Origin: Bilabrum cf. latius
Taxonomy: Eukaryota
Assembly: GCA_965178125.1 (NCBI GenBank)
Contig: OZ237749.1
Span: 930,001 to 994,000, forward strand
DNA: 64,000 nt
Direction of reading: 5' to 3'
This document shows, piece by piece, positions 12,157-32,256 of this stretch; positions within the stretch are counted from its first letter, which is position 1, and the number at the start of each line of letters is the position of its first letter. The notes beneath the pieces are model-generated. The model had not been told where the DNA came from and made no database searches. It saw only the letters and a list, made by a program, of their open reading frames with translations. Both the position numbers and the translations under genes were made by a program.

Positions 12157-14592
12157 ATGCAGGTTCAATATTCGGCCGTTTCACCTCCAAAGCTTGCCGC
12201 AGCAGTATCGTATGGGCTGGGAGTGAAGGTTGATTTTAAGAAGGCGAAAGGATCCGCAGCTACGGCCGCACCTGTTCTGGCAACCAGCGACGGGTAAGAA
12301 AAGTAGTCAGGCCATCCCTAGCGTTGCAGCACACAACACAGGGCATCGCGCGTTAGTTTACGTTTTGTTCTTTCAGTCAATTGCAGGTCATTCGTAGCTG
12401 GCGATGCTGCTATCGCGAAGGCGATCTGCCGCAGGGCCGGCGATGTTGGCCAGGCCTTCCTTGGGCAAGCCGGTACTCCCTCAGCCGCTGACGGTGTTGA
12501 CTAGTGGCTCGTCCTCGCTGATGTTGTTCCATCCCTCTCTAGCGCGGTCGAGACGGTTGCTGCCCTCGAAGCGACCCTTAGCAAGCGCACTTACCTTGCA
12601 GGCTACAGCCTGACGCTTGCCGATGCCGCCATGGCGCAGGCTCTGCGATCCAGGAGCGATGCCTCTCTGCCCGAGGCGACTGCGCGGTGGGCTAGCATGT
12701 GCGACGACCGATTCTCGCTCGCAAAGGTGGACCAGAACTTCCCCGCTGGCGGCGAGGCGGCGGCTGCAGCTGCCGGCAAGTCTAAGGGCAAAGGCAAGGG
12801 CAAGGGCGCGGCCTCTGGAGCGGGCGCTGGGCAAGCAGGAAAGGGCAAGGGCAAGGGTGGCGGGGGTGCGGCTGCCGCAGCAGGCGGCAAGGGCAAGGGC
12901 AAGGGGGGCGGCAAGTCCATCTCGGGGTTGACGGGCGCGGAGGAGGGCAAGGTGTGCACGCGATTTCCCCCGGAGCCCAGCGGGTACTTGCACATCGGCC
13001 ATTTGAAGGCTCTGTTGCTGAACGAGCACTTTGCACGGTCGTACGGTGGCAAGCTCCTGATCCGGTTCGACGACACCAACCCGTCCAAGGAGCGCGGCGA
13101 GTTCGCAGAGGCGATCCTCGAGGACATCGGGCGGCTGGACATCCGGCCCGATGCGGTCTCTCACACCTCGGACCACTTCGCGCTCATCGAGGAGTGCGCC
13201 CGCGGCATGATCCGGGAGGGCAAGGCCTACATGGACGACGCCCCGCAGGACGTCATGAAGATCGAGAGGAGGAACGGGATCGAGTCGGTCCACAGGCAGG
13301 CAAGTCCCGAGGAGAACATGGAGAAGTTCGACCTCATGCTCTCGGGGGGCGGGCCCCAGTGGTGCCTCCGCGCCAAGATGGACATGCGGGACCCCAACAA
13401 GGCATGCAGGGACCCGGTGCTCTACCGCGCCAACGACGAGCCGCACATCCGGTTCGGCAGCAAGTACAAGGCGTACCCCACGTACGACTTTGCGTGCCCC
13501 ATCGTCGATTCTCACGAGGGCGTGACCCACGCGCTGCGTACCACCGAGTACAGGGACCGGGACAAGCAGTACCACTGGATGATCAAGGCGCTGGGCATGC
13601 GGCACGTGCACATTTAGGAGTTCTCCCGACTTAACTTCCAGTTCACGCTCATGAGCAAGCGCAAGCTGACGCAGTTCGTGGCCCAGAAGCAGGTGGAGGG
13701 CTGGAGCGACCCCCGCTTCCCCACGGTGCGCGGTATGCTACGGCGCGGGGTGCAGGTCAAGGCGCTCAAGGACTTTATGGTCATGCAGGGAGGCAGCCGA
13801 AGGGACGTGGACATGGAGTGGGACGTGTTCTGGAACGCGAACAAGAAGGTGGTGGACCCTCAGGCGCACCGCTTCTTCGCCATCGTGGCGGAGGGTGCCG
13901 TGCCCGTGCGGCTGTCCAACGGGCCGGAGGGCGTCGAGGTGGGGCGCGTGCAGTTGCATCCCAAGCACCCCGAGTACGGGCACAAGGCCATGCCGCGCAC
14001 CAAGACGGTGCTCATCGAGGCCGAGGACGCAGCGACCGTCCAGGAGGGGGAGGAGATCACGCTGCAGCGGTGGAGCAACGCCATCATCCGGAAGAAGAAC
14101 CTGAGGGCAGACGGGTCGATCGAGAGCATCGACGCCGAGCTCAACCGCGGGGGCGACTTCACCGCCACCAAGAACAGGATCTGCTGGGTGGCCTCTGGGC
14201 CGGGCGCGCAGCCCACGCCTATCGAGGCCGTGGAGTACGACTTTTTGATCACCAAGAGCAAGCTGGAGGAAGGAGACAACGTGGACGACTTCCTGAACCC
14301 CGTGACCATGGCCGTGACTCCCATGCTGGGTGAGGCCGCGCTGGCGGGAGCAAAGGAGGACCAGGTGCTGCAGCTGGAGCGGAGGGCCTACTACAGGGTG
14401 GACAGGCCGCTGGTGGACGAGCGAAGGCCGCTGCGGCTGGTGCTGGTGCCAGACGGGAAGACCAAGAAGACCTCTGCTCTCAGCTCGGCGATCACGAGGA
14501 GAGATGTTGCAAAGCAGAGGGACGCGCAGGCGGCAAAGGGGGGCGCCGGGGACCGGGCGCCCAAGAAGGGTAAGAAGGGCGCGGGCAAGTGA
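12157..14592 (+). CDS. Cytosolic glutamyl-tRNA synthetase with N-terminal GST-like domain, ~780 aa
   Basis: Intron 12294-12386. GST-C-like VD*WL...RTYLAGYSLTLAD, then RFPPEPSGYLHIGH, RFDDTNP, YPTYDFACPIVD, MSKRKL, WSDPRFPTVRG. TAG at 12502 and 13615. Ends TGA. Confidence 0.95.
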
Positions 14593-14856
14593 TATGTGAT
14601 TGGAGCGATGCACGGATCAACCAACAAGCAAGTCGATCCAAGAGTCAACAACGCGATAGAACACCCAAATTCAAGATGCCGCCTCCCACCCGCATGGCAG
14701 TCCACCCGAGCGCTGACAGCGGATCCCAAGAGATGCAATCTGCGTATGAAGCCTGGCGTGCGATCTTCTTGAGATAGCAACCCTATTGCGGCTTCCGACC
14801 TAACGCATCATCTCGACCCAGCTGCCACCCGCTAGCCACCTGCCCGTCGTTGTGCT

Positions 14857-16029
14857 TCAGTCCTGCTTGGGCCTGGTCTTGCCTCGGGACCCAGCGCGTC
14901 CCTTAGTAGCAGAAGCCCGCCTGTGCCTAGCCTCCTCCTCATCGCTGCCCTCATCTTCCTCGTCTGTGCCCGCCCCGGACCGCTCAGCGTACACCATGGC
15001 CAGCGCGCTCTTCTTCCCCTTGTCCAACTCGACCTTGACCCCCTTCTCGTTTGCCCCAGCGCCCTTGCCCTCCTCCTCCTGGGAGTACGGCTCCTCGAAC
15101 CTGACCTCGAAGCCCTTATTCTCGAGCAGCTCCACCACGGCCTCTCTGTTCCCCGGCTCCGTCTCCACCACCACCGCCCGCACCCTGCCCCAGTGCTCGG
15201 GGCGCACCCCCCGGAGTACCGCCATCTCGGCCCCCTCCACGTCCACCTTCAGCAGGTCGATGCTGTCCAGGCCAAGGCGGTCCACATGCTCGCTCAATGT
15301 CCGGATCGTGCACTGCACCGGCTCCGTCTGCGTGGCGATCTGCATGAAGGGCCAGAGGAGGGCCCAGATGAGGGGCCACAGGAGCGGCCGTACACAGGTG
15401 TGGGCGTCCTTGAGCACGCCTTTGACGAAGCCGTCCAAAGTCGCGTTTGGCCTGGACTCCAAGAGATCCTCGGATGACGTGGACCAGACGCTCATCCTGG
15501 GGTGCGACAAAAAGGTCGGGGCGGCCGCCTCGTCCCCGAGGCCCTCGTTGATCACCAGGCCGCCGGCGGGGCATTTGCTCTTGCCGCTCGAATCGGCACG
15601 GAACGACGCAGTGGCTGCATCAATTTTCTTTGTAGCCGGATAGTTCCGCTGAATGTTGCTCGCAAGGCGCTTGAATGTCGAAGGGATGGGCTCGAACGCG
15701 AGCACCCGACCCTCGGTGCCAGCCAGCCTTGCTGCCCACAGGCTGAACATTCCAATGTTCGCGCCTGCATCGACTACTGTCGATCCAGCTTTGATATGCT
15801 TTGCCACTTTGGAGTAACACGACTCCTTGAATATCTCGTGGTAAAGCAGGCTAGTTTCGCCGTTCGAGATTTGATCAACTTCAATGCCATTCGGAAGCTC
15901 TACAACCGCTGGTTCCCATGGTCCGGTAGCTGTCAGCAAGAGCAGCGCACAATAAAGTACACCTATGAGCAGCCCCAGCGTGCATGCCGCCAGAAATGCG
16001 ACCTCCTGGCCGAGCTACCACCCGGTCAT
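14857..16029 (-). CDS. FkbM-family SAM-dependent methyltransferase with N-terminal membrane anchor
   Basis: VVDAGANIGMFS, VLAFEP, IDLLKVDVEGAE. The ORF extends through TAG 16015 to ATG 16029, adding a hydrophobic helix. Ends TGA. Confidence 0.85.
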
Positions 16030-16363
16030 CGTCGGTAGAGAACTCACGGATGGAGGCAGCACCTCGTAGGCTCCAAATCCTGCGGCGCCAATACCTATGA
16101 CTGCTAAACACGAATATATTATTTCTAGTGGAGTCATTCTGGAACTGTCCGACCGCTATGAGTGCAAATTGGGCAGCTGAATTATTCCAACTCGGAGCTT
16201 CAACATCCACATCGGTCGAAAGCTTCATTCGGCCTTCTAGCCGGGATCTGTTTTGTGATAGAGCATTCATACATCTGTACTGTCTAGCGGGGAAAAGCAG
16301 GTACGTATCCATTGATGGCTTAGGAGGCAAGGCGACCGAATCGACTGTGAGTGAACCTGCGGC

Positions 16364-16813
16364 ATGTCAGGAGCTGGTAGTGGGAAGCCGGCGGCAAAGA
16401 CTGCATCGAAAAAGAAAAAACAGAAGGATGGGTAGAAAAAGAATGCGAAGCCGGCCCAGAAGCCTGGTGGTGGTCAAGCGCAAGGCAAGAGCCGCGGCAA
16501 AGGCAAGAACACAGGCGGAGGCAAAGGCCAAGGCCAGGCCAAGAACAAAGGCAAATCCAAAGGCAACACTGGTGGTAGAAACAAGAGTAATAGCAAAAAG
16601 CAAAGAGCCCGTAGCGGAGCAGAGAAGGCGTCGGGAGGCAACGGATAGACGGGTGGGTTTGGTGGTGCCGCAGCGTCTGTGAGCAGCAAAGGTGCTGGCG
16701 CTCCCGGTAGTGCTGCTGCGCATGGAGCTGGACTATCCTACATTGCGGAATAGCTCGATTTGCCGCACGTTGATATGGTCGACGCGCTTGCGGTGCTAGA
16801 TACCTTGTATTGA
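16364..16813 (+). CDS. Small Gly/Lys/Gln-rich basic protein (149 aa), absent from the ORF track
   Basis: MSGAGSGKPAAKTASKKKKQKDG*KKN...LSYIAE*LDLPHVDMVDALAVLDTLY-TGA, with TAG at 16433, 16646 and 16751. Coding-like composition. An upstream exon is possible. Confidence 0.55.
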
Positions 16814-16937
16814 TCGCTGGTGAACCTACAGCTTTCACTCGAGCCGCCTGCCAATGATTTTTATGCAAACAATGTGTAGAGTGCCATGCAACACGCGCAT
16901 ATAGTGCAATGGATAGCCTGCACCCTGAACCCAATCG

Positions 16938-19068
16938 TCACGCTTGCGGAACGATGGAGCCATAGGTATCGCTGCCCATCCGGTCGGCCCTACCCTCCTG
17001 CAGCCTGAGGGCCTGCTCGGGGCTGGCCCCAGCCTCGGCCCCCGAGCCATGCCCCGACCCGCCCCCGGCCCCCACACTGTTCCCCAGCAGCGCCCGCCTG
17101 CCACCTTCCTCCGCAACCCCCTTGCCCCCCTCACCCGCACCCGCACCAGCGGCCTGGCTCTTGCTGTCGCCATGCCCAGCCCCATCCCCGTCCAGCGGCT
17201 TCCCCGCAGTCTCCTTGCCCATGAACAGACTGGCGATGGCCGCCACCACAGACATGCTCCCAAAGATGTACACCGCCAGCCGCACCTGCCCCTTGGCCAC
17301 CAGCCCCTGCCCCACGAAGGGCGCCACCATCCCGCCCACCCGACTCAGCGAGTTGGCGATTCCAAAGGCCCTCGCCCGGATCCTCGTGGGGAACAGTTCC
17401 GGCGTGATGATGAACAGAGCCGTGAAGGCGCTCAGGATGGCCGCCCTGCCTACAAAGATCACCACCGTCCTCATGATGCCCTCCTTCACGCCCAATAGCA
17501 AGAAGAACGACAGCGCGCCCACCAGCAAGCTGCTCGACTGCACCGCCTTGCGACCAATCACGTCGATCATGAAGGCGCAGAACATGAGCCCGGGCACCTC
17601 TGCACTGGACTCGATCGCGATGCTGGCGTAGTCCCCATCGTCCAGAGGCACGCTCCCGTCCGCAGGACAGCCCCCGTTCTCGTTGACAGCCACCTACGTG
17701 GCCAGCAGCACCAACCCGTAGTACGTGAATGCGTTGGTCACCCACACGAGCCACAGCACCAGGGTAAGCAGCACATAGGGGGGCGACAGCACCTCCATGA
17801 AAGCACCCAACAGGCTGCGGTCGCCTGCCACGGACTGCCAGCACCCACCCGCGCACGTGTCCTCGCCCCCCTCGGCCCCTGCCAACCCCAGCCCCTTCCT
17901 ACCGCCGTCCGTCTCGGCGCCCCTTCGCTCCAGGTCGTGCCTCTCCCCCCCGGTCAGCTCGAGCCCCACCCCACTCGCCCTCGCCTCGGGAGGACCCCCT
18001 TCCTCCACCTCTACGCCCCCCGCGGGCACATCGTCGCTGTGTTCTCCAGCACCGCTCGAAATGGCATGCGGGTCTACGCCCTCGGTGGCCTCCTGCATGG
18101 AAATGGGCCTGAGCCTTGCCTCCTGCAGGAGCTCCAGGGCCTTGTGGGAGCCGTTGGAGCGAGCAATGGACCGGAGCACTTGCTCGGCCTCCTCCTCCCT
18201 GCCCTTGGCAAGTAGCCATCGAGGCGACTCGTGGGCAAAGAAAAATCCAACGGCGAGGACGAAGAGCGGGATGGCACTGAAGCCGAGCAGCCAGCGCCAG
18301 CCCATGGACCGCAGCACCAGGTAGGCAAGAAGGCACTGAGTGAGCGTGCCGATGGCCCAGAACCCCTGGATGAGGCTGCCCCACATCCCGCGAGAGACAG
18401 TGGGTACGATTTCCAGGAACATCGACAGCATGACGGGGACCCCCCCGATGCCAAAACCCGTGAGTGCGCGCAGCAGCAGGAGCAGCCACACGTTGGGCGC
18501 CAGAGCAGAAGCTAGGCCGGATACTCCTACCAAAGCGCTGCTCAGAATAATGCATAGCCTTCTGCCGTACATGTCTGCCACTGCACCCCACGCGTTTGCG
18601 CCAAAAAACATACCAATGAACACCACCGTGGAGATGAGCGATTCTTGCTCGCTCGTGATAGCTATGCCATGGTCACACGACACAGCCGGACCCAAAAATG
18701 ACAATATCATAATTTCCATAGCATCAGCTGCGCGATATCGAGGCGTTTGAACGGGTGAGACGTTGCGAGGGCCTGCCGAGTGCGATACAGTGGCGTGAGG
18801 CAAATGAAGTTGGTCTTTTTTGACGCTTTCTGTCGTCTCACATGCATAACCAAGCCCACCCAGGCAAAGAAGTACTATCTGCGACATGCGTATGCCCAAA
18901 AACTAGCGTGATACATCCGAGATGACCCCGATCTGGGCAATACATTGCTATTCAAGTACTATTCAAGCAAACAGCTCGTAAGGGCCGCCTGAGAGTGCGA
19001 CTCACCTGGTACTGACCCCACCCAACTGTGTTTACCACCTCATCGATTCCTACTTGACGCCGCTCCAT
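16938..19068 (-). CDS. MFS transporter, SVOP/organic cation transporter-like, ~629 aa
   Basis: Introns 18879-19005 and 18728-18841 give GWGQYQ|IVLL...GYASDAMEIMILS. Motifs DMYGRR, ESPRWL, DVIGRK, PELFPTRIR. TAG at 17694 (YYGLVLLAT*V). Ends TGA. Confidence 0.9.
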
Positions 19069-19167
19069 GCGCGCCATTGCAGTGAGCGAGAAACGAACAC
19101 TCGCCCTTGGCCACACCAGCATTCGTCACAGTGCAGCAGCTCGCTGCTTGCCACTGGCAGCGGAGCA

Positions 19168-20799
19168 TCACTGCCTCCCAGGCTCCTTTCCTACCCCTTG
19201 ATCGGGTTCCTGACTTGTCTATTCCTTACCGTCTGTATTTCGTGCTGCGATTTGCTCCTACTGCTTGCTTTTGTCCGCAACGACTTCGGCCTGCCGAGCC
19301 GCTGCCTGCGCCCGCAGGGCCGCCAGCTGCTCCCTTTGTTCCTTGGAAAACATGTGCCCCAGGGCCGCGTAGTTCTCCACAGCTTCTTGCAGCAACGCTG
19401 CGTTCTTCAGCTTGACCCCCTTCTCCTCCGCCCGCTTGGCCACGAGCAGGAACACTTCGGCCGGGGGCGTGCGCGCGGGCAACCTCTGCGCCTCCTCGAT
19501 GATGGACGCCGCTGCAGCCTGGCTCTCGCCGTCCATCTCCAGCTCGATCTGCAGCGTCTGAGATCCACCCGGGGCGCCCAGCGGCCGCGAGTTCCATACA
19601 TACGTGTGGTCCTCCTCCACGCCCCCCTCCTCCTCCTCCGCGGTCCCGCCGGCAGCGGCACCACCATTCAGCCCCTGCCCCTGCCCTGGCACTGGCTCTG
19701 GCTCTGGCTGCATGGCCGCGCCCAAATCGCCCGCATCCACGGTGGCCCCCGCTTCCACCTCCACCATCCTCGCGCGCACCTGCTTGATCCGATCCTCGAG
19801 CTCGCCCTCGTACCCCAGCGAGGCCGCCCGCTCCAGCAGCTCAAGGGCGCGAGGCAGGTCAGCGGGCCCGCCCAGACCCGCCTCCAGCACGTACGACAGG
19901 CTCAGCAGGCTGGGCACGAAATCCAGGCGGGCGGCCTCTTCCAAGTAGCCCCTCGCGACGCCCTCGTTCTTGCCCACCCCCTCGCCCTGCAGGTAGCAGA
20001 CCCCCACGTTGTGCAGGGCCACGGGGCGGCCCGACCTGGCGGCCTTCTCTAGAAGGTGAAAGGAGCGCTCGGGGTCTTCGGGGACGCCCTCCCCGCGCTG
20101 CAAGCGACGGGCGAGGTGTACCTGTGCCACCGGGTCACCACGCTTCGCCGCAAGTCGGAGCCAGCGGAGGGCCTCCTCGTCGTTGGGCTCCACCCCTTGG
20201 CCGTAGGCGTAAATGTTGTGCACATTGTAGGCGGCCGGGGCCACGCCTTTGTCTGCCGCGCAAATGTACAAGTCTAGCGCCCGCTTTAGTTGTACCCTGC
20301 TAGCTGAATCTTTCGCGTCCTTGTGCCGATCGTACAGGATGTTCGCGAGACCAAACATTGAGTACCCGTGATCTGCTTTCCTAACGATAGTTTCGTACAC
20401 TTTTTCGGCTACTTTGGGAGCGGGACCTCCATACACTTCTTTGCAAATGCCCAAGCCCTTGTTGATGCAATGGGCAAGGTTGTAGTAGCTCTCTAGGTCT
20501 CCCTTTTTCGTTGCTAGCGTCCACATCACGGTGGCAGTACGAATATCCTACTTTGTGCCAGAGCCGTGAAATGCCCGCTCACCAAGAATGCGTAACTCTT
20601 TTGATGTTTTTGATTCAAGCAATTCCTATGGCGATGCAGCGTACTGCGAAGCGAATTCATCCTGGACAGCCTGTCGAGGCTTTATGCCTTCCAATTCTGC
20701 CTTTGCCTATCGAAGCACCTCCTTAGGATCTTGCCTGCGAAACACACTACCAATTGCAGATGATACGCGTCCAGCTGCACCCCTTAGACTCCTCCACAT
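19168..20799 (-). CDS. Sel1-like repeat protein with possible mitochondrial presequence, ~543 aa
   Basis: Repeated GxGV..(D/N)...A..W...AA..G motifs. N-terminus MWRSLRGAAGRVSS. TAG at 20707, 20626, 20548, 19258 and 19219. Ends TGA. Confidence 0.85.
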
Positions 20800-21029
20800 C
20801 TTGTCTGCAGAGTGGAGCGGCGCGATGGATGCCTGATGGCAGCTCCGAATCAGCGCAGTGGCGGAGCTGCACAGCGATGATACTGGTCACCGAACGCAAC
20901 GATGACGCCCCAGCGCAGCGACATCGCACGCAGGGCTCGCAGCGAAGCTTGTACCATGTTCTAGTGCCTCCAGGCTCGCCGTGCTCTTCTGCAATCCTTG
21001 CAGCTGATCAGCAGCTCTGCCTGCCGTCA

Positions 21030-21911
21030 TCACTGGCGACCCTGTGTGGATCCGTGCCTGGTGGCAGAGGGCTTCGTATGCGTGCGCGCGCCTTCATTGG
21101 TCGTTGCAACGCCCTTAACCCCGCCCTGCGACTCCCTCACTCCGTCGTTCATCCCGTGAGCACGGGGGCTCGGGGCCAGCATGGCGGCCACCAGCTTGCC
21201 CGTTCCCACCAGCACCAGCAGCAGAAACGCAGCACCTCCCGCCGCGTACGCGTAGCTTCGTCGGAGCGTATCGCTAGCGCTCTTGCCTGCGTACTCAACG
21301 ACCGTGTCCCGTTCCCCGATCGGAACCTCTACAGCAAGCTGGCCGTCGGGCTGCGCACCATCGGCCACCAGCACATCCAGAGACCACTGCGCACCCATGA
21401 GGTGAGCTATCTTGAGCTCCCCTGTATCGCCACCAACGTGCTCGAGCAGCTTGGCCGGTGGCTTTGACTTGCCGGCTAGCTGGACTTCGGTCAAAGGGTC
21501 GCCCCAAGCTCTCAAGCGGCAGCCTCTGTACCCTTTGCCGTCGACCGGGGCTTGCTAACTATCCTGCGTCACTTGCAGTTCAGCATTCGCCTTCTCAGAG
21601 GCAACTTCATATAATAGGGGCCCTAGCGTGTTGATAATGCTGTCTTGTAGCGGTGCGCGACTGACGGTCTAGATCTATCGCAGCACATCATCGCTACCAT
21701 GCTGCTTAATCTGCAGCTAGAAAACGTCAAACCCAAGCAAGTTAGCTGGACCACATGTAGCTTTGGAAACATTGGCAGATGCGTCCTTATCGTACTGCAG
21801 AGACACTCGAAGCTTTTGCAACTGCAAAATCACATCGCCGTGGTTGTTCAGCGTAGACACACGCCGCAAGCCAGTTCCAAAGCTCGTCGCCATACACCGA
21901 GAGGTCAGCAT
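21030..21911 (-). CDS. Hypothetical protein with C-terminal transmembrane helix (~293 aa)
   Basis: ORFs 21717-21941 and 21030-21515 are in one frame, joined through TAG at 21717, 21675, 21669 and 21555. Ends TGA TGA. No family recognised. Confidence 0.55.
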
Positions 21912-22155
21912 ATTTGTTTTACGTATTGCACGGACTAGCATATGCGTATTAAGCTTTTGTATGCAATTTTGAGGTTGGATCCAAAAAACAGAACCGGATT
22001 CCGGATTGGATCAGCTGCTTGAGTGCAATTGTGCAAATCTGGTCGGCGCCGCGCCCAGTGAATGGCATCATCGTTCATCATGCCCGCCACTTTGTCTCCC
22101 TCACGCGACATGTCCACCCTGTGCGCCTGCTTTGCTCCTGGACCGCATTCGACAC

Positions 22156-22989: not shown

Positions 22990-23124
22990 GCTGCAAAAAA
23001 AAGTTACGCAAGCCTCACAGATCCAAGCAAAAGCAACCGACGAGCAGCCAGCGATGACGCGTATCGATCATCGTACGGTTGCCCGCGGCGGCGAGCGATT
23101 CGACCCGAAACCGATCCAAGCTCA

Positions 23125-25368
23125 TCACGCATCGCACCAGCTCGCCCCGTCCACTTCCACGTCCACGTCTCCCATGGCATAGGTCCGGCTCCCCTCGGCC
23201 CCTTGCAGCACCAGCGATGCACCCCCGCAGCACCCACCCCCCCCCTCCCCGGCCACCTCCACCCGGGGGAGCTGCCCCCCCTTCTCACCGTCCATCACCA
23301 CTAGGACCACGAGGAACGACCCGTCTCCAGCCCGAGCGCCTGCGGTGCTTCCCGCCGCAACCGCTCCAGCTCCTGGCGCAGACGCAGAAGCACCCTCCGA
23401 AACACCGCCGGCAGCCGCCACATCGACCCACGTATTATTGTGGTACAGCTTGTCTCCGTAGGGATACCCGAGCGAGTGAGAGTCGCCGGGGATGCCCCTG
23501 TGCACGCTGCCCCTCCGCAAGGAATAGTTCCCCGCCCGGGGCCAGCCCACGAACGCGTGCACACTGCCGATTGCTGGGGCCCCTTGGCCCTCGCTGCCCG
23601 GCCGCCGGGACACGATCGCATCCAGGGCCTCCTGCGCCGCCTGCTTGGCCTCTGGTGACACGGTCAGGCGGAAGGTCTCCGGCACGGCCACGCCTCCCGG
23701 TGTTCGCACGCTGTGTTCCCCAGCCCCAGCCCCAGCCCCAGCCTAGCCACCGCCCTCGCCCTCACCCTCGCCCTCGTCCTCGTTCTCGTCCTCGGTCCGC
23801 AGCAGCTCGAGGTCGTTGAAGTCTGGGGTGTTGAGGCGCCACACGCTGCCGTTGCTCGAGGTATCGCCCACGACCACGACCGCCTTGACGCCCCCGCCGA
23901 GCGCGCCCGCCGCCCCAAAGTCGGCCAGCACCCGCCTCGTGTGGTTCCCCACGAACGTCGCTGACCCTCGCACCACGGAAAAGGCCCCCAGGCCCTCTTT
24001 GAGGCATGGCTGCCTGAGCAGCTGCCCCCGTGCCTGCGTGTCCCCGTCTGAAATCAGCTCCGGGTCCTCAGGGAACAACGAGGTCTGCCCCTAGGGCTTG
24101 GTGATGCGGCCCGCGCCCGCCGCCCACGCGCTGCCAGCCCCCAGCAGCCTGAACCCGTTCACGTCGGAGGAGCTGTGGCACTGGTAGCACTGCCTGTGCT
24201 TGGCCGTGTGCTGCACGATGATGTCGCTGCCGTCCATGGCGTGTCCCGACCGCGCCAGCGTCATGCCGTACGACGTGTCGTTGTACACGAGCCAGCCATC
24301 TGTCGGCGGCTCGCTGGGCCCTTCCTCCTCTGGCAAGAACAGGAGGGCATACAGTGCCCCGCCCCTATACGAAGAGAAGTGCCTGTCGCCCAGATTGCCG
24401 TACATCCTGCGGTAGGCCCTCAGCATGCCGGGAAGGTGCTCGGGCAGCGACACCCCTGGGCCGAACGCGAGGTTGGCGGACCCCTGCGCGGTGCAGATCG
24501 CGTTGTCGTCCACAAAGTCGTTGTGCAGGCCCAGGCTAGGGCCGGCTGCAGCTGGGTCTTGCGAATCGAACGAGGGGTACGGCAGAGCGGCGCACGCCAG
24601 GTAGGTCGTGAACAGCATCTGCCGGGCCGGAGGCACCTCGGCCCCGAAGTCAAATCCCCACAGCCGGCGCGCGGCAATCACGAACGGGCCGGTGAACTGC
24701 CACGGATAAAATGTGTACCCTTTTCCCTCAGGATCCCACCCGCGCTGCTCCGATTCATGCAGCCGGTGCCCCTGGTTCGCCCGAAGGTGTCCCATGAGGT
24801 AGTCGAAGGCATTTTTCCCGCGCCGCTCGCACTCTGTCTCGTCGCAAGCCGCAAAACAGAGCCCAGCAGAGGCATATCGGACAGCTTCATGATTATTGCC
24901 GAAACCGTTGACGCCGTCGAACTCGTACATTAGCGAGTAACCGTTAGAAATGAGCTATACAGACAAGTTGGATCTCGTGGCTTCAGGCCATTCCTGATAG
25001 CACCCATCAAACGCGATTGCTACCCCTACTGAGAAGTACGCCCGTGTCAGCCCTCTTGCACTCGTGTTCGCCCACATGCCAGACTCGTACACTACAAACT
25101 TAGCGAGCTCCAGGGCTTGAGTGCAGTACCCGCGGTTGCCCGTCGCAAGGTATGCCCCCGGCAGCGATCGCAACAGCGTTCCGTTGTAGTAAGGCTCTGT
25201 ATGATTGTCCAATGGATCAACCAAGAGCTTTGCAATTGACGCGTAAGGCTCTCTCGCAGCCTTGGCCCGAATCGTTGGAATGTCGCTGCTGCTCCAAAGG
25301 AGCCTTGGATGGTCCTGCGCTATGCCTTGCACCGCAAGCGCAGCAGCCGCGAAGAATGCTAGCAGCAT
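23125..25368 (-). CDS. Secreted heparinase II/III-like (polysaccharide lyase-like) protein, ~747 aa
   Basis: Signal peptide then HPRLLW....IPTIRAK (typical N-terminus), GNNH, EGKGYTFY, HSSSDVNGFRL. TAG at 24955, 24091 and 23743. Ends TGA TGA. Family call rests on motif recall only. Confidence 0.65.
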
Positions 25369-25572
25369 GTAATTCGAAAGCTCGGCGATCTCAGTGGCGG
25401 GGGAACGTGAGTCTACCGGCCTGCGCGGGCGTGAGCTGCAGCACCGAGTTGCCGCCGGTGGCCCATGCAGCAATGCAACACCCGCACCGTACCGTACCTC
25501 CGCGTTTGAATGCCAGCGATGCACCGGTGATGGGCGATCCATGCGACACGAATACAAACACAGCCACACGGT

Positions 25573-27505
25573 TCAGACAACGCCATTTATCGAGAGGTAA
25601 GACAGCGTCAGCAGCCCGGACCCCGCGAGCCGCATGAGCAGATGCGCGGGGGCGAGCTCCGCCCGAGCCTCCGCCTCCGAGATCCCAATGTACCTTCGTG
25701 CCAGCGTGGCCGCCAGGATCGACACGCCCCAGCACAGCACCACTCTCAGCACCGTCATCTCCAGGTACGTGCCCGACAGATCCACGAAGGCCGTCGCCAG
25801 GTAAAAAAACAAAAACTCCCTCCCGAACTGCAGAGCCCGGAACAGCACCAGAGACACCCACTCGGTCTCGGACCACGACAGACCCAGGAGGCGGCCGAAC
25901 CGGCCACAGCCGCACTGCTCGCATCCACCACAGCTTGCTTGTTGCTCCCTGTTTCTGCTTGCAGCCGCTCCCGCCTAAATCTCGACGGGAGCTACCGCCA
26001 CCGCCAAAGCTCCGCCGTCCGCCCCCGATTGCCGACCACCCCGCCCGCCGTCCTCTTCCTCACGGGCCGGTCCCAAGGCAGGCCCCACCGAGCCGGGTCC
26101 CAATGAAGAGGCCCCAAACCCGGCCTCCGTGCTTCTCACGCCCGCGACCTTCCCTTCACTTCCCAACATGCCACCACCTGCCCCCTCACCGCCTCGACTG
26201 TTCCCTCGTGTGTTCCCCAGCTCCTCGATCCTGTCGCGTGGCTCTCCAAGAAACTCGGCGAGCTGGGGCCAGGCGGCCGCGGCCCACACCAAGGGGAGCG
26301 AGGTCACGGGCAGCATGATCTGGTCCGCTGCCGCATACCCGAACATGGTTATGTCGCACTTCTCCTCCAGGTAGGTCGTGCACACGATCCCCACGCCGGC
26401 GGTCAGAGCGAGCACCACAAAGGCGAGGCCGACAGAGGCCACGTGCCACAGCTCCAAGCGAGACCACCCGCCGCCCGAATCGTCACCCTCTTCTGCCTGG
26501 AGCCGAGGGGCGGATTGTAAAGAAGAGTCGTTCCAATCTCCATTTGAAGTGCCATGGTCGTGGCTTCCACCCTGGCCCAGGAGCGGGCTGGTGGCGCCGT
26601 CCTCCGGTTGCTCACCGCACCCGTCCGAGACCTAACCGCGTGGAGGTTTGGTGGCGGTTCGCAGCTGAGCTGCATGGTCGTCCGTTGCGTTAATCTGGGC
26701 TTCAGATGGCGGCTGCTAGAGCCTACTGTCGCCGCCACCGTCCCTGGGCCTCGTCTTGGTCGCGGGCGAGAGGCAGCTGAGAGCGGCGCTCAGGCTGGCC
26801 CAAGAACCCCTCCAAGAGGGAGGCAGAGTCATAATACACAACACTGTACCAATGATTGCCAGCATGACTCCAAGTGCCCCGGGCGGAGCGTCGCCAGACA
26901 TACCTACCACCCGCTCGAACGGTGCAATGAACAAGCTCGCCAGAATGAAAGCCAGCACGACTAGCACAGCTCCAAGAGGTTCCCGCAATACATAAATTAG
27001 TGCTACCCAGTATACTGTATTATTGAACGCATTCACCCAGATTCCTGGGCACCGTGCCAGGCCCAGCGGCAGCCACAGTGAGCCCTGCCGCTAGGTAACT
27101 CCCGCGGGCAATGCGAGCTAGAGAATAGCCAAAATAATAAATGCTTGTACCGCAGAGTACACGGTGACGGACGTCAGTTGGCGCAGAACGGAACGCTTGT
27201 GCACTATCCTCGAGTGCCGCTGTCCGAAAAACTCGCCACCGGCCGATAATCCCTATGTAAAGAGCAAGAGCCAAAAGCTGGGATGCCCAGTCTGCTTGGC
27301 AGCACCTAATAAGGCGCGTGCGCCCCTCAGGAAGCGCGATGCCATTCCTGGAAACAGGCCGTTTGAGCAGTTGTCGAGGCTGCAGCGACCGTCACCACGA
27401 GCTGGACTGGAGTGACGAGTTGGCGGCTGGCGGATCCGATCCGATCTTTGGCTTGCGCTGGACCAAGCCTGGGCCAGAGCTGCCAACGCAAAACCGACGG
27501 GCATG
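25573..27505 (-). CDS. Multi-pass membrane protein, possibly DMT/EamA-like transporter (5' end uncertain)
   Basis: Hydrophobic ORF pieces in one frame joined via TAG at 26716, 26632 and 25975. Probable intron 27045-27150 (VLCG|IWVNAFNN). Ends TGA. Confidence 0.55.
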
Positions 27506-27604
27506 CACCGATCAGCCAGCCGTAACCGAGACCGTGGAGCGTCATGGTCCCCCAGCCTGAGGGACCGTGCAGCCAGCGGCACTCCAAAGGGATCGGGCCA
27601 GGGC

Positions 27605-30600
27605 TCATGCGAGCACGTGCGCCCCCGTCCGCACCACGTGTACCCCGGGCTCGAGAGTGACAACCGCGTACTGCTCGTGCGGCTGCTCGAGCTCCAGCTC
27701 CACCTCGCCCAGCCTCTGGCCGTCCACCTCAACCCTCCTCCGAGTCGGTTCGCTGCCCCTGCTGGCCACAGGGGCATACACCACCGCCCTGCAGCTGCCG
27801 GGAACCTCCACCCGAACGCTGAACCCAGCGGGTGCAAGACCGCTGGCACCGCCCGTCCTCCTCCCCAGCTCGCCCGGCTCCTGCTGCAGAGTCTGGTTCA
27901 CGTCGACAGGGATGGGCCCTCGGATCGAGGGAACAACTAGGCTTGCCCTCGTCAGCGCGCCCAGCTGAGGCCTGACTTCGAAGGTGGCAAATCCCGGCGC
28001 GGTCGCCTTCACCCCCATCAGGTACTCCGCCACAACCCACACCAAAGGGGCCCCCCACGGGTGCGAGAAGGTGAGGTTGGGCTTCTCGCTCGGGTCCCAC
28101 GCCTCCATGCCAGCGGTGGCATTGAGCGACAGCTGGTGCAGCCACGAGTGGGGGCCTGCAGCCGCCATGAACTTCACACCCGCATGCCCGTGGTCAGTCA
28201 CGTTCTAGAAGAGCACCGTCAGTGCCCACGGGCCCAGGTACACGCCGCCCACGATGCCGTCCTGCTCCTCCATGCGCCGCAGCACCATACCCCGGAGAGC
28301 CGCCTGCTGCTCCTCTTCAAGGCCGTCGGCCAGTCCGTGCAGCATGGCAAACACAGTGCTGTGCCAGGCCTGGTGCGGGGTACCGGCTCCATCAATGAAG
28401 CCGTCGGCCAGCTGCTGCTCTTCTTCTTCACCCTCCCTTCCGGGGTCCGGCAGCAGCAGCGTTTGTGCTGCCCTGCGCATGCGAGATGCCGCTGCCGCCG
28501 CCCTGTCAGCGTCCTGCGAGCGGTTGAGTGCCCTGGCAAGCGCCTCGAAGCTGACGAGGGCACGGTAGCTGAACGCGTTTACCACCGTGTTCTCTGGACG
28601 GTACACGAACCCGTCCCTCAAGTTGGATGGCCAGTCGATCTCGGGTCCGTTGCAGCTGAAGAGCGTCACGTTCGCGGTGCAGTGCTCCACTCGACTGAGA
28701 CCGCCACACGGTGGACAGGACCACAGACCAGAGGACTGGTTCACCAGCGCCGTCCCTGTCCAGTTCCTCAGGGTGGCGTAGTGCCTCTCGGCTAGGTCCA
28801 GCAGCCCCGTCCTCATGTAATCCTGGTAGGTCGAGATGACCATGATCATGGGCCACTCGGCCGCCCGGGGCCCGCCCCAGCCCCGCTGCTGGATGCCGTA
28901 CTCGAGCGACTGCCGCTGCACCATGAACTCGAGCGAGGAGGCCCAGCCCATGCGGCTGTTGATGTTGATGTTCTCGCCGCACATCACGTCTCGCTGCCTG
29001 GTGTTCGAGTCGGTGAACATGTCGATGGTGGTGGTCACCTGCGTGTCCCGACTCAGCCCGTGGACCCTTGTCACTGCCTGTGCCAGCGTGGCATTTCCAG
29101 ACTCCGCCTCGAACTCTGTGCCGGTGTAGTCGGCATCGTACCGCACTCGCCAAGCAGAGATGTTGAAGGAGGACGCGGGAGGCGGGGCCTGCTGGGATGC
29201 ATTCAAACCGGGCAGCACCCGGATCCTCGCGAACCGAAACTCGGAGTACTCGTGCTGGGTGAACCGCTGGGACCCCGCCCTCAGCGTCCACTACTCGTGG
29301 TAGTCGTTGCCCGTGTGCATGGGCACCTTGAGATCCCGGGGCCAGGCTGTGCCCGGCAGTAGGTCCTCGGTCATGGACACGTCCAGGACGGTTCCCTCAC
29401 TTCCGGGCGGGGCATCCACAGCCACGTCCATGCCGCCCATGAACTCGAGGCCGAAATCGACGAACAGGTCCAGGGTATGCGACGAGGGGTACTGACGGAT
29501 GTCCTGCGGCTGCAGACCGTGTGTGACGAGCACGTTGTTGCTCGGTCTCGGTCGCAGCGGGGCCCACCATCCTGGCGCAGGCACGGCCTGCTCCCACGAA
29601 GAGTCGTTGAATCCCGCCTGCCGCCAGCCGACGGGCTCCTGCCTTGCGTCGAAGTTGTCGTGCGGCTGGTACTGGTCCTGCTTGTAGGCCGAGGCGCAGC
29701 ACGATGGGTTAAAGTAGTCCGTGGCGTTGTACGCCTTAAATGAAGGCCCTGATCCGACGGAGATCCTGGTCCCGTTCCGAAGCACCAGGTCTAGCTGCAG
29801 GAGAACCTTGGGCGGGATAGGCCCGTCCTCGCCGTAGTTCCTGGACATGTACGTCTGCAGGGCCACGACCATCGTAGACGGTGCAGAATCGCTGCCATCT
29901 TGGGATCGTTCAGCCTGAAGCTCGCCCTCAAGCTGCCCCTCTGTGCCCCAGGGGCCGATTGCGCCGTCTCCCTTCTCTGCACTTTGTCCCGGCACCTTCA
30001 TCTGCGCCTGCTCACTGGCAGGCCTTTGCCTCCCTGCACTGGCGCCCTGGGTCACCAGCGCAGTGACGTCATACACGTCATAGAGGTGATGGGGCTCGCA
30101 GGAGCACTCTGTGGTCGCGTCTTGGATGGGGCACACGGGGCCGCAGGTGGACACCCGGCCGGGACCCATCCCCACAAGGGCACCGTCGAGGTACAGCTTG
30201 TACGAGGCGAGCAGCTTGGCGTTCTGGACGCCGCTCCCGTGGGTCGTCTGGGGGTTGGCGGTGATTCCCGCGAGGGCAAGCACGACGTCTTGGCGGAACG
30301 ACACCTCGATTTCCCTGCGGAAGAGGACGAATCCGTCGGCGCCCTCCATCCACATGGGAGTGGATGTGGCTGCATCGGGCTCCCCTGACCAGCCTGTCGT
30401 GAAGGAGGCCCAATCGCTCCATGGCAGGCACTCTCCGCGAGTCATGCACGCAGAGACTCTCCATTTGTAGGCATGCATGGCCTGCAGCAGGCCTTCGCTG
30501 ATCACAAGATCCGTTGAGGGCGCTGCAGATGTGCCATTCTGCTCTAGCAATATCTTGCCCGTCACAGAATCAGCCAGCTCAAGGCCGAATGATTCTTGGT

Positions 30601-30784
30601 CCCCGTGGCCGCTCGGTAGAGCCCACGATACAAAAGCTGAGCTTGTGTTGGGCTGAACTGGGCCGTAGCTACGAAGATTCGTCAGCAGCTGAAATGGAGC
30701 ATCTTGGCTATCCAGTCGCGATGCCTCGACTCTAGACTAGTGCACGACACCAAATATCGCAAAAAGACTCGAGGCCACCCGCAT
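27605..30784 (-). CDS. Alpha-L-rhamnosidase-like glycoside hydrolase (GH78), secreted, ~1059 aa
   Basis: LYLDG..VG.GP, YDVYDVT, FDARQEP.GW..AGFNDSSW, FVDFGLE, FTDSNTRQR, EAWDP...SHPWGAP, LMGVK..PGF. TAG at 30737, 29291 and 28205. No intron. Ends TGA. Confidence 0.85.
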
Positions 30785-30885
30785 GCAAGAAAAGAAATGG
30801 TCTGGAAGGATCGGAGTTGCACTTGGGCGGCGCCGGTTCCAACCTCCCGCTGCGATCTCATTGTACTTCACAATAGCACGTAGCT
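30785..30885. promoter_or_regulatory. Probable bidirectional promoter between GH78 and GH28 genes
   Basis: Only 101 bp separate the two divergent ATGs. No specific motif identified. Confidence 0.5.
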
Positions 30886-32256
30886 ATGACCTCTATGTGT
30901 AGGATCGCCATTCTTACTGCTTGTGCTTCGAGTATGATGGCCGAGTCGAAGCGTTGCGACGTCGTGGTTGACTGCAAAGCGGACGCGACAAACGTCAGCA
31001 TCTCGACATCACAAGTGTAGGCCTGTGTAAACGAATGCTTGCATGGAGGAGAGGTTTATATCCCCAACAATGCCGCAATTCGCATCAGCTCAATCGATCT
31101 TACGGGAGCATCCGACTTTGCGCTGACGTTTGGGCGAAATGCCTCGCTGAATGCTGTGCAGGACCCGTCCCTGTACCCGCTGGTCCCCTTCCTGCCGTTC
31201 GGCGAAAAAACGAGCTACAGGCCTATTATTTACGGCTGGAATGTGACAAATGTAACGATCGCCGGCTCGGAGCAATGGGCTGCGTTCTCCGAAGAGCCGC
31301 CGGTGCTGAACGGCGCAGGAGGCCCATGGTGGTTCAATTTTACAAAGGGAGTGCTCAAGTACAACCGCCCGAAGCTGATAGAACTGGCCAATGGAACGCA
31401 GATCACCATCAAGGATCTGCACCTGCGGGACTCCCCCAACTGGACCAACCACGTGTACGGGACGTCTGGCGTGAAGTTCAAGCGCCTCCTGGTGACGGCC
31501 CCTCGCGCCGTGGGGAACACGGACGGCATCCACCCGGAGTCGTGCTCGCACGTGCTCATCGACAGCTGCCACGTTGACGTGGGCGACGACGCAATCACGC
31601 TCACCTCCTCGGCTTGGCCCCACACGGACCGCTGCTCGGCCACCCGGCACGTACTCATCACCAACTCGACGCTGCTCTCTAGGAACCTCGCCATAGGATC
31701 GCAGACGTTCTGCGGGGTGCACGACGTGCTCGTGCAGGGGGGCCGCATCGGGGACGACGGGAACGCGCAGGGGATCGGCTCCTCCCCCTGGGCCTTCAAG
31801 ATCAAGCAGCACCAGGACCAGGGGGGTGACGTGTCCAACGTCACTCTCGACGGAGTGAGGGTGGGCCGCATCACGCCCAACCCGTGGCAGCAGAAGCATG
31901 GAGGTTGGTTGGTCACCGCCTACATGAACTACGGCGAAGAGGGAGAGGAGGGAGGGGCGACGGAGGGGCCCCGCTCCCAGCACGCGCACCCGTGGGGCCT
32001 CGCCGATGATGACGAGCCCGCCCCCGCCCCTCCTCCGACCATCCGGGATGTCACGCTGCGCAACATTGTCGTGACGAGCGCGATTTATCCCGCCTCGCTG
32101 ACGGGCCTCCCGTCGTCGTACATCTCAGGCATCACCTACGACAACGTCACGATCCTCGACACGCAGCACACGCAGCCTTGGAGCTGCCACTACGTCAGGA
32201 ACACCACGGTCATCAACTCGTCTCCTGGGCCTGCACCCGGCACCTGTGGGACATGA
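30886..32256 (+). CDS. GH28 polygalacturonase-like glycoside hydrolase, secreted, 456 aa
   Basis: Signal peptide, DSPNW, NTDGIHPESC, VGDDAI, AIGS, FKIK. TAG at 31018. Ends TGA. Confidence 0.88.

What the first reader, a model, noticed from the sequence alone, without database searches (positions are those of the whole stretch)
12490..31035. Diagnostic motif positions suggest UAG = glutamine
Seen plus family knowledge: GluRS GST-like domain ADGVD*WL (12502; consensus VDQWL). GH28 N-terminus TSQV*ACVNEC (31018; consensus T.AIQ.AI..C). Sel1 repeat GSGTK*D..TA (20548; consensus G.GV.QD..A). Kinase 2 also has FL*DK (63898; cf. FQD) and AL*EKSSN (63504). TAG also sits in hydrophilic Q/E-rich contexts (KSKQ*EQ, FGQ*PY, TQE**V), which argues against Leu or Trp. 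TAG is one transition from CAG. Less supportive sites: PepN DLD*FNI (homologs often I/L) and GluRS HI*EFSRL (often W/Y). Glu is the main alternative I cannot exclude by eye.
Basis: partly seen in the sequence, partly recalled or inferred. Interest (0 to 1): 0.9.

Follow-up and report, generated by a model that had tools for sequence, protein, structure and literature searches.

The report
UAG read as glutamine, Cafeteria-like protist
This stretch of DNA comes from a GC-rich protist related to the flagellate Cafeteria that reads the stop codon TAG as the amino acid glutamine, a rare kind of change to the nuclear genetic code.

Summary
The window is an intron-poor, 62% GC eukaryotic contig. Its genes form reading frames of up to 2,813 codons with no TGA or TAA, but with 77 in-frame TAG in 18,129 codons. 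Glutamine is the meaning. At 6 of 6 TAG positions where a close relative aligns in a well-conserved context, the partner is Gln, and CAG or CAA where DNA is held. These are GluRS 13615, the MFS transporter 17694, and three sites in a membrane protein plus one reciprocal site where the relative has TAG and the window CAG. Pfam rescoring rejects Leu and Tyr but cannot separate Gln, Lys and Glu. TGA (20 of 23) and TAA (3 of 23) end the frames. Contigs that look like spliced transcripts carry the TAGs unchanged. A more distant relative still uses TAG as a stop. A GluRS tree places the organism beside Cafeteria. No tRNA(CUA), eRF1 or peptide data could be examined. Verdict: a new lineage with a known code variant (UAG=Gln, UAA/UGA stops). 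Seven literature searches found no report of it in stramenopiles.

The parts
12502..12504 (+). In-frame TAG in the GST-like domain of GluRS ('GVDxWL')
   Evidence: for position. In alignment A1, Q in 6 of the 10 homologs aligned there, the others H, E, A, T. X5 and X6 transcript-like contigs cover it with 0 differences.
13615..13617 (+). In-frame TAG in the GluRS catalytic domain ('HVHIxEFSRL')
   Evidence: The 90%-identical relative P0001 has Q. The other 13 aligned homologs have I3, H4, Q2, V2, A1, W1. PDB relatives have W or Y.
12387..14592 (+). GluRS exon 2 through its TGA terminator. An intron at about 12294-12386 (GTAAGA..CAG) lies upstream.
   Evidence: Pfam tRNA-synt_1c 304.9 bits. PDB 7wrs E=1e-154. 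Intron ends read. X5 record 6 and X6 record 13 both begin to match at 12386.
17694..17696 (-). In-frame TAG in the MFS transporter ('LVLLATxVAV')
   Evidence: Q in P0284 (95% identical) and in P0124 (94% by BLASTP), both of one 90%-identity cluster, and in P0125 (64%). Among 144 homologs: E 53, Q 19, S 14, R 13, A 10, T 8, V 5, K 5, gap 5, and 12 others.
27253..27255 (-). In-frame TAG in the unnamed membrane protein TM25 ('LLLFTxGLSAGG')
   Evidence: L001 has CAG here. Q also in P0287, P0276, P0280 and P0283 and in L002.
27118..27120 (-). In-frame TAG in TM25 ('LAILxLALPAG')
   Evidence: L001 has CAG. Q in P0274, P0286, P0287 and P0275. E in P0276, P0280 and P0283 and in L002.
27091..27093 (-). 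In-frame TAG in TM25 ('AGVTxRQGSLW')
   Evidence: L001 has CAA. Q in P0274, P0286 and P0287. More distant homologs have D, E, R.
27220..27222 (-). Window CAG (Gln, 'EFFGQRHS') opposite an in-frame TAG of relative L001. Coordinates are derived from the 11-codon offset to 27253.
   Evidence: window CAG against L001 TAG, local identity 19 of 20. The near-identical ENA protein P0287 has Q there.
20548..20550 (-). In-frame TAG in a Sel1 repeat ('GSGTKxD')
   Evidence: Sel1 Pfam score: X 123.0, Q 125.6, K 125.8, E 123.6, Y 122.2, L 121.8.
35180..35182 (-). In-frame TAG in PepN exon 1 ('YDLDxFNIVA')
   Evidence: The PDB column reads I (four constructs of one protein) and T (5dll), so it is a variable column.
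39527..39529 (-). In-frame TAG in the dTDP-glucose 4,6-dehydratase-like gene ('KAYxRSF')
   Evidence: The PDB column reads F, K, T, A, H, so it is a variable column.
31018..31020 (+). In-frame TAG near the GH28 N-terminus ('SQVxACVNEC')
   Evidence: Of the 2 PDB alignments that reach it, one has Q (1bhe) and one has A (5olp).
28205..28207 (-). In-frame TAG in the six-hairpin domain of GH78 rhamnosidase ('VLFxNVT')
   Evidence: Bac_rhamnosid6H score: X 54.5, Q 55.7, E 55.8, K 55.6, L 54.0, Y 54.0.
63666..63668 (+). In-frame TAG in exon A of the second Aurora-like kinase ('KPTKxTLVLK'). Others lie at 63504 and, in exon B, at 63898.
   Evidence: Pkinase scores.
62063..62065 (-). TAG 33 codons before the TGA of Aurora kinase 1 ('HPWIxQF'). 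Its reading as sense or stop is open.
   Evidence: It lies just past the end of the Pkinase match (residues 156-404).
18728..19005 (-). Intron region of the MFS gene (GTGAGT..CAG, 278 nt), dropped from transcript-like contig X5 record 9
   Evidence: The record has 37 letters of its own between the two laid pieces, so a short exon may lie inside.
25573..25575 (-). TGA terminator of TM25, at the conserved C-terminus of the family
   Evidence: Relative L001 ends at the same aligned place with TAA. L002 ends there with TAG.

Best explanation
The window comes from the nuclear genome of a GC-rich, intron-poor stramenopile whose nearest named relative is Cafeteria. In this organism UAG has been reassigned from stop to glutamine, while UGA (the main stop) and UAA still terminate.

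Shown:
- TAG lies in frame inside conserved domains of many genes.
- Those TAGs are present unchanged in contigs that lack GT-AG introns, so they look like spliced transcripts.
- In close relatives the same positions hold CAG or CAA (Gln), and the reverse also occurs.
- A related lineage (L001) shares the trait and ends the same gene with TAA.
- A more distant relative (L002) ends that gene with TAG.

Inferred from established knowledge of such codes (Panek et al. 2017, PMC5304391, section 9 read): decoding is by a tRNA-Gln with anticodon CUA, derived from tRNA-Gln(CUG) by one anticodon change. That anticodon pairs with UAG but not UAA. Inferred likewise: eRF1 has lost or weakened UAG recognition. 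New TAG codons then arise from CAG by C-to-T transitions. TAG now makes up about 9% of Gln codons (77 of 821).
For: 1. Frames and domains. Frames delimited by TAA and TGA only run up to 2,813 codons. Pfam domains lie inside them.
2. TAG density. There are 77 in-frame TAG per 18,129 codons, against 614 CAG and 130 CAA.
3. Close relatives at TAG columns in well-aligned context give Gln at 6 of 6 positions:
   - GluRS 13615: P0001 (90% identical) has Q.
   - MFS 17694: P0284 (95%), P0124 (94%) and P0125 (64%) have Q.
   - TM25 27253, 27118, 27091: L001 has CAG, CAG, CAA.
   - L001's own TAG lies opposite window CAG, and opposite Q in the near-identical P0287.
   A seventh column without a close relative, GluRS 12502, has Q in 6 of the 10 homologs aligned there.
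4. Pfam rescoring of 9 segments. Summed top-family bits are Q 982.3, K 983.3, E 978.2, Y 972.0, L 968.7. Leu and Tyr are disfavoured by 10-14 bits.
5. Terminators. Of 23 frame ends, 20 are TGA and 3 are TAA. L001 ends TM25 with TAA at the same aligned residue.
6. Transcript-like contigs. X5 and X6 contigs match the window with 0 differences across the TAGs. They stop at or skip GT..AG introns (12294-12386 and 18728-19005).
7. Limits of the trait. L002, whose TM25 is 35% identical, ends that gene and a second ORF with TAG. The trait is therefore derived within a narrower clade.
8. Placement. In a GluRS tree the window plus P0001 (support 1.0) is sister to the Cafeteria clade (0.69), and the larger clade that also includes P0003 has support 0.99.
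Against: Wider-family columns do not favour Q everywhere:
- MFS: E 53 against Q 19 of 144.
- GluRS 13615: W or Y in 5 of 5 PDB alignments, and I, H, V, A or W in 11 of the 13 other aligned homologs.
- PepN: I and T.
- RmlB-like: F, K, T, A, H.
- TM25 27118: E in 3 of the 5 homologs.

Pfam rescoring scores Lys 1.0 bit above Gln, so it does not separate them.

Seven further TAG pairings between the window and L001 lie in poorly aligned, low-complexity parts (local identity 7 of 20 or less). They read S, A, S, R, I or a gap.

The close-relative evidence comes from only 3 genes. No tRNA gene is in the window or in L001/L002. No genome is held. eRF1 and peptides were not seen.

The RNA nature of X5 and X6 is inferred from splicing-like gaps. 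The tool labels X5 'RNA? (probably DNA)'.

TAG is mildly enriched in the last 35 codons of frames: 7 seen against 3.1 expected, P=0.04 uncorrected. Some 3'-proximal TAGs could therefore still terminate.
Confidence: 0.93

Rival explanations
1. TAG has two meanings. It is read as Gln inside genes but still terminates at some 3'-proximal positions, as UAA does in Blastocrithidia nonstop (abstract seen in the listing) and as Panek et al. describe for stop codons of Condylostoma and Parduczia (Fig. 4 legend). This refines the Gln reading and does not contradict it.
For: TAG is mildly enriched in the last 35 codons: 7 seen against 3.1 expected in 22 frames, P=0.04. Examples are Aurora 1, where TAG falls directly after the kinase domain and is followed by an Ala/Ser/Gly-rich tail, the WW protein (7th codon from the end) and unk40 (6th from the end).
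Against: The same pattern is expected if former TAG terminators were simply read through to the next TGA or TAA after the reassignment. The significance is marginal and was not corrected for the choice of threshold. The three genes whose C-termini can be compared with relatives (GluRS, MFS, TM25) end at TGA. No gene in the window needs TAG as its terminator.
Confidence: 0.1
2. TAG is a sense codon but encodes another amino acid, most plausibly Glu or Lys.
For: Pfam rescoring puts K (983.3) slightly above Q (982.3), with E at 978.2. E is the commonest residue in the wider MFS family column (53 of 144). E also appears in 3 of 5 homologs at TM25 27118.
Against: No relative at 60% identity or more has E or K at a well-aligned TAG position. 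All 6 such positions pair with Gln, and with CAG or CAA where DNA is held. K is absent from both GluRS columns and accounts for 5 of 144 in MFS. Leu and Tyr score 10-14 bits lower in Pfam.
Confidence: 0.03
3. TAG is still only a stop. On this reading the in-frame TAGs are assembly errors, belong to pseudogenes, or are removed by RNA editing.
For: None specific. The RNA nature of the X5 and X6 contigs is inferred and not on record.
Against: 77 TAG are spread over 21 of 23 frames, while TGA and TAA are absent from them. Independent runs from other studies reproduce the sequence with 0 differences. Contigs lacking GT-AG introns keep the TAG, which argues against editing. Relatives have in-frame TAG in the same gene family. 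Domains remain intact on both sides of the TAGs.
Confidence: 0.01

Closest known systems
Iotanema spirale (Fornicata) nuclear code: UAG = Gln, UAA kept as the primary stop (Panek et al. 2017, PMC5304391; abstract and section 9 read)
   Same: Only UAG is reassigned, and to glutamine. UAA and UGA still terminate. The predicted mechanism is a tRNA-Gln(CUA) plus an altered eRF1.
   Different: It is an unrelated lineage (a metamonad against a stramenopile). In the window TGA is the main terminator (20 of 23), not UAA, and the genome is 62% GC. tRNA and eRF1 were not seen here.
Ciliates with UAG-only reassignment to Gln: Protocruzia tuzeti and two phyllopharyngean lineages (McGowan et al. 2024, PMC11687900; passages of the Discussion read)
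   Same: The same code variant, evolved independently.
   Different: Those are ciliates (alveolates). The window's organism groups with Cafeteria in a GluRS tree.
UAR = Gln codes (NCBI table 6 type: many ciliates, hexamitin diplomonads, ulvophytes, Streblomastix, Amoeboaphelidium; listed in PMC11687900, passages read)
   Same: UAG is read as glutamine.
   Different: In those codes UAA is also Gln. Here no in-frame TAA occurs in any of the 23 frames. TAA ends 3 of them, and it ends the TM25 gene of relative L001.
UAG = Leu in the rhizarian exLh (PMC5304391) and UAG = Ser in Scotinosphaera (mentioned in PMC11687900)
   Same: The meaning of UAG is decoupled from that of UAA.
   Different: The amino acid differs. 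Leu is disfavoured by 13.6 bits in Pfam rescoring. Neither Leu nor Ser appears in close relatives at well-aligned TAG positions. Ser was not rescored.

Membership tests
Nuclear code variant UAG = Gln with UAA and UGA as stops (Iotanema type) | In-frame UAG inside conserved coding regions of many genes | tested here: met
   77 in-frame TAG in 18,129 codons, present in 21 of 23 frames. TAGs lie inside Pfam-matched stretches of 9 genes.
Nuclear code variant UAG = Gln with UAA and UGA as stops (Iotanema type) | UAG positions correspond to glutamine in orthologues | tested here: met
   Gln at 6 of 6 well-aligned positions in close relatives, and CAG or CAA where DNA is held. GluRS 12502 has Q in 6 of 10. 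Only 3 genes supplied close relatives.
Nuclear code variant UAG = Gln with UAA and UGA as stops (Iotanema type) | UAA is not a sense codon and serves as a terminator | tested here: inconclusive
   There are 0 in-frame TAA, but the frames were defined that way. TAA ends 3 of 23 frames. L001 ends TM25 with TAA at the conserved C-terminus. TAA is rare in this genome (152 and 148 per strand), so the power is low.
Nuclear code variant UAG = Gln with UAA and UGA as stops (Iotanema type) | UGA is a terminator | tested here: met
   20 of 23 frame ends are TGA; one of these, at PepN exon 1, is an intron donor and not a terminator. The GluRS, MFS and TM25 ends coincide with the ends of relatives.
Nuclear code variant UAG = Gln with UAA and UGA as stops (Iotanema type) | A tRNA with anticodon CUA and glutamine identity | not testable with these tools
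   No tRNA gene in the window or in L001/L002. No genome is held.
Nuclear code variant UAG = Gln with UAA and UGA as stops (Iotanema type) | eRF1 altered in its stop-codon recognition motifs | not tested
UAR = Gln codes (NCBI table 6 type) | UAA also read as Gln | tested here: not met
   No homology-supported frame continues across a TAA. TAA ends 3 frames and ends the L001 gene.
Context-dependent codes in which a stop codon is both sense and stop (Condylostoma, Blastocrithidia) | The same codon terminates at true gene ends | tested here: inconclusive
   Mild excess of TAG in the last 35 codons: 7 against 3.1 expected, P=0.04. There is no direct evidence of termination at TAG.
UAG = Leu, Tyr, Glu or Lys variants | UAG positions match that residue in orthologues | tested here: not met
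   Pfam sums are L 968.7 and Y 972.0 against Q 982.3. E (978.2) and K (983.3) are not excluded by Pfam. They are excluded by close relatives, none of which has them at 6 of 6 positions.

The most novel reading that the evidence does not exclude
A whole clade of Cafeteria-related stramenopiles reassigned UAG to glutamine in a GC-rich genome. At least three lineages are involved: the window's organism, the relative in runs X8/X10 that differs by about 5-8% in nucleotides, and the L001 lineage at 62% protein identity. In the ancestor UAG was a common terminator, since 2 of 5 frames in the standard-code relative L002 end in TAG. Many genes must therefore have been extended at once, and 3'-proximal TAGs may still terminate part of the time. 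That would make it a young, possibly still ambiguous reassignment, and a natural test between the ambiguous-intermediate and codon-capture models.
Probability: 0.12. Interest if true: 0.8.

Novelty: new member of a known kind. Interest (0 to 1): 0.62.

Why it matters
Changes to the nuclear genetic code are rare, and cases in which UAG changes meaning while UAA does not are rarer still. The papers read list Iotanema, Protocruzia, a few phyllopharyngean ciliates, a rhizarian and Scotinosphaera. Seven full-text searches found no report of a nuclear codon reassignment in stramenopiles. The only stramenopile item seen was a cited paper on labyrinthulean mitochondria. If that holds, this adds a new eukaryotic supergroup lineage to the list.

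The GC-rich setting is of interest. A standard-code relative uses TAG as a frequent terminator, so the change cannot easily be explained by prior disappearance of the codon.

There is also a practical consequence. Gene callers using the standard code cut this organism's proteins at every TAG, and the database fragments P0121, P0274 and P0286 end exactly at such codons. Metagenomic bins of this clade will therefore be mis-annotated unless they are read with a code in which only TAG is Gln.

Tried and rejected
- Naive-Bayes guess of the residue from the ±4 flanking residues of 77 TAG sites. All 20 residues scored negative, with no sensible order, so it was dropped as uninformative.
- PDB alignments for PepN, the RmlB-like gene and GH28. 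The columns are variable or covered by 1-2 sequences, so they decide little.
- Search for shorter relatives of the 2,589-residue coiled-coil protein. Only 3 fragments were found and none spans a TAG column. P0121 ends where the window has 'FGQx'.
- Read laying. The table of differences for the divergent relatives X8 and X10 showed 40 of 1,752 rows, so substitutions at TAG sites could not be read from it. None of the 40 rows falls in a TAG codon. No holder listed is on record as RNA.
- First alignment for the metagenome scan (A2). The 9,360-nt contig that holds P0283 was not recovered.
- MAFFT on 151 MFS sequences timed out and was replaced by pairwise BLASTP read-out of the column.
- ARAGORN with intron and low-threshold settings gave only spurious calls with kilobase-long 'introns'.
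- The search of earlier findings gave nothing on this genome, on the words tried, or on look-alike sequence.
- Trp and Ser were not rescored against Pfam.
- Supplementary files of the papers were not seen. Additional file 5 (Table S4) and Additional file 6 (Figure S2) of PMC5304391 may bear on tRNA and eRF1 comparisons.

Full report
**What the window is.** The 64-kb window is 56-69% GC in 4-kb windows. With TAA and TGA as the only stops it resolves into a dense series of long frames on both strands, with the codon-position GC pattern of coding sequence. Pfam identifies the following:
- a ubiquitin hydrolase
- a WW protein
- a STE20-like kinase
- a eukaryote-type glutamyl-tRNA synthetase (GluRS)
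- an FkbM-type methyltransferase
- an MFS transporter
- a Sel1-repeat protein
- a GH78 rhamnosidase
- a GH28 glycosidase
- aminopeptidase N, in several exons
- a dTDP-glucose 4,6-dehydratase-like enzyme
- an Aurora kinase

A second, Aurora-like kinase runs off the window's end in two exons. Introns are few and of the GT..AG type. No whole genome is held for the window. There is no tRNA gene in it.

**The observation.** Counted from the first Met of 23 frames, there are 77 in-frame TAG in 18,129 codons. The off-frames of the same DNA hold 115 and 103 TAG, 273 and 272 TGA, and 33 and 54 TAA. Frames of 2,590 and 2,813 codons contain 17 and 7 TAG but no TGA or TAA.

Some of the TAGs counted are not coding. 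Those at 12304 and 12319 lie in a GluRS intron, and a few lie upstream of likely start codons. Many others, however, sit inside matched domains. Examples are GluRS 13615, within a continuous 513-residue alignment to a solved GluRS, and sites in MFS, Sel1, GH78, PepN, the dehydratase, USP, WW and the second kinase.

**Which amino acid: broad families.** I rescored nine TAG-bearing segments against Pfam with TAG read as Q, E, L, Y or K. The summed top-family bit scores were:

| Reading | Summed bits |
|---|---|
| K | 983.3 |
| Q | 982.3 |
| E | 978.2 |
| Y | 972.0 |
| L | 968.7 |

. This rejects Leu and Tyr but cannot separate Gln, Lys and Glu.

PDB alignments showed that several of the columns are simply variable:
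- PepN: I and T
- dehydratase: F, K, T, A, H
- GH28: Q and A
- GluRS 13615: W or Y

**Which amino acid: close relatives.** The decisive evidence comes from close relatives in public metagenomes and run assemblies.

- *GluRS 13615.* P0001, 90% identical, has Q. At GluRS 12502, Q is present in 6 of the 10 homologs aligned there, including Cafeteria.
- *MFS 17694.* P0284 (95% identical), P0124 and P0125 (64%) all have Q. The wider family has E 53, Q 19, S 14, R 13, A 10, T 8, V 5 and K 5 among 144.
- *The unnamed membrane protein at 25576-27330 (TM25).* A JGI contig, L001, carries the orthologue at 62% identity overall. In the well-aligned part (16-19 of 20 flanking residues identical), the window's three TAGs at 27253, 27118 and 27091 face CAG, CAG and CAA.
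- *The reciprocal site.* L001 has its own in-frame TAG where the window has CAG, and where the near-identical protein P0287 has Q.

That makes 6 of 6 well-aligned positions paired with glutamine. Gln makes up about 4% of residues in these frames.

Seven other pairings between the window and L001 fall in low-complexity stretches that do not align reliably. They read S, A, S, R, I or a gap, and I give them no weight either way.

**Stops.** Of 23 frame ends, 20 are TGA and 3 are TAA. One of the TGA ends, at PepN exon 1, is an intron donor and not a terminator. GluRS, MFS and TM25 end where their relatives end. L001, which has in-frame TAGs, ends TM25 with TAA at the same residue. TAA is rare in this genome, so the case that it is purely a stop is reasonable but thin.

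**Is it in the RNA?** Two runs from other studies (X5, X6) hold contigs identical to the window (0 differences). These contigs are broken near gene borders and differ in depth from one contig to the next. X5 record 6 and X6 record 13 both begin to match at 12386, the acceptor of the GluRS intron. X5 record 9 drops 18728-19005, which reads GTGAGT..CAG on the gene's strand. These look like spliced transcripts, and they keep the TAGs, which argues against RNA editing. The runs are not on record as RNA, so this step is an inference.

**How far the trait reaches.** Runs X8 and X10 hold a relative about 5-8% divergent in nucleotides across the whole laid stretch. Its MFS gene (P0284, from a 6,096-nt contig) has Q at the window's TAG. 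A database fragment, P0121, ends exactly where the window has a TAG. L001 shares in-frame TAG.

By contrast L002 ends both its TM25 orthologue (at the conserved C-terminus) and a second ORF with TAG, so it uses the standard meaning. L002 is part of a 43-kb contig, and its TM25 is 35% identical to the window's. A FastTree of GluRS puts the window plus P0001 (support 1.0) next to the Cafeteria clade (0.69), within a clade supported at 0.99. This is a single-gene placement.

**Mechanism.** Shown: UAG is a sense codon that stands for Gln. Inferred: a tRNA-Gln(CUA), one anticodon change away from tRNA-Gln(CUG), reads UAG but not UAA, and eRF1 has reduced UAG recognition. This is as argued for Iotanema (PMC5304391, section 9). 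Neither molecule could be examined here.

**An open point.** TAG is mildly over-represented in the last 35 codons of frames: 7 seen against 3.1 expected, P=0.04, with the threshold not chosen in advance. This fits relics of former TAG terminators now read through to the next TGA or TAA. It would also fit residual termination at 3'-proximal TAGs.

**Comparison and novelty.** The code matches the UAG=Gln, UAA/UGA=stop variant known from Iotanema spirale, Protocruzia tuzeti and two phyllopharyngean ciliate lineages. It differs from the common UAR=Gln codes because TAA is not sense.

Seven full-text searches found no nuclear reassignment reported for stramenopiles. The library does not hold most subscription-journal papers, and the source runs date from 2025, so a recent report cannot be excluded. 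I file this as a new member of a known kind.

Noticed in passing
window 62063 (Aurora 1), 3237 (WW), 40450 (unk40), 19219 and 19258 (Sel1), 6756 (DUF7630), 51805 (unk50): TAG codons cluster near the 3' ends of frames: 7 in the last 35 codons of 22 frames against 3.1 expected (P=0.04). They may be relics of former TAG terminators now read through to the next TGA or TAA, or sites where TAG still terminates.
   Followed up: partly
L002:10325-11524 and L002:6500-8011: A more distant relative (55% GC, from a 43-kb JGI contig) ends its TM25 orthologue at the conserved C-terminus with TAG, and ends a second ORF with TAG. It therefore keeps the standard meaning, which bounds the clade that carries the reassignment.
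   Followed up: partly
window 27608-30913 (-) and 30502-32253 (+): A GH78 alpha-L-rhamnosidase and a GH28 glycosidase lie head to head in what appears to be a heterotrophic flagellate. These are plant- or algal-wall (pectin-type) degrading enzymes with mostly bacterial and fungal relatives. This may reflect diet or gene transfer.
   Followed up: no
window 32517-36295 (-): Aminopeptidase N is split into at least three exons. The HEYFHN..WFQ zinc-site exon lies between 34787 and 35039 in another frame. This is unusual in an otherwise intron-poor contig.
   Followed up: partly
window 41585-49351 (-): A 2,590-codon frame encodes a coiled-coil, acidic low-complexity protein that holds 17 TAG. Four of these lie in an acidic Asp/Glu/Gly-rich low-complexity stretch. 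Only three short relatives (84-91% identical) were found among shorter database proteins.
   Followed up: partly
P0276 (hit of TM25): A protein filed under Symbiodinium sp. KB8 is 44% identical to the window's TM25 and has Q at one TAG column. It may come from a stramenopile contaminant of that assembly and not from the dinoflagellate.
   Followed up: no
window 12784-12915: The Gly/Lys-rich linker of GluRS (GKGKGKG repeats) attracts many partial, rearranged contig matches in all four laid runs (joints and loose ends). This looks like a low-complexity repeat artefact, not structural variation.
   Followed up: no
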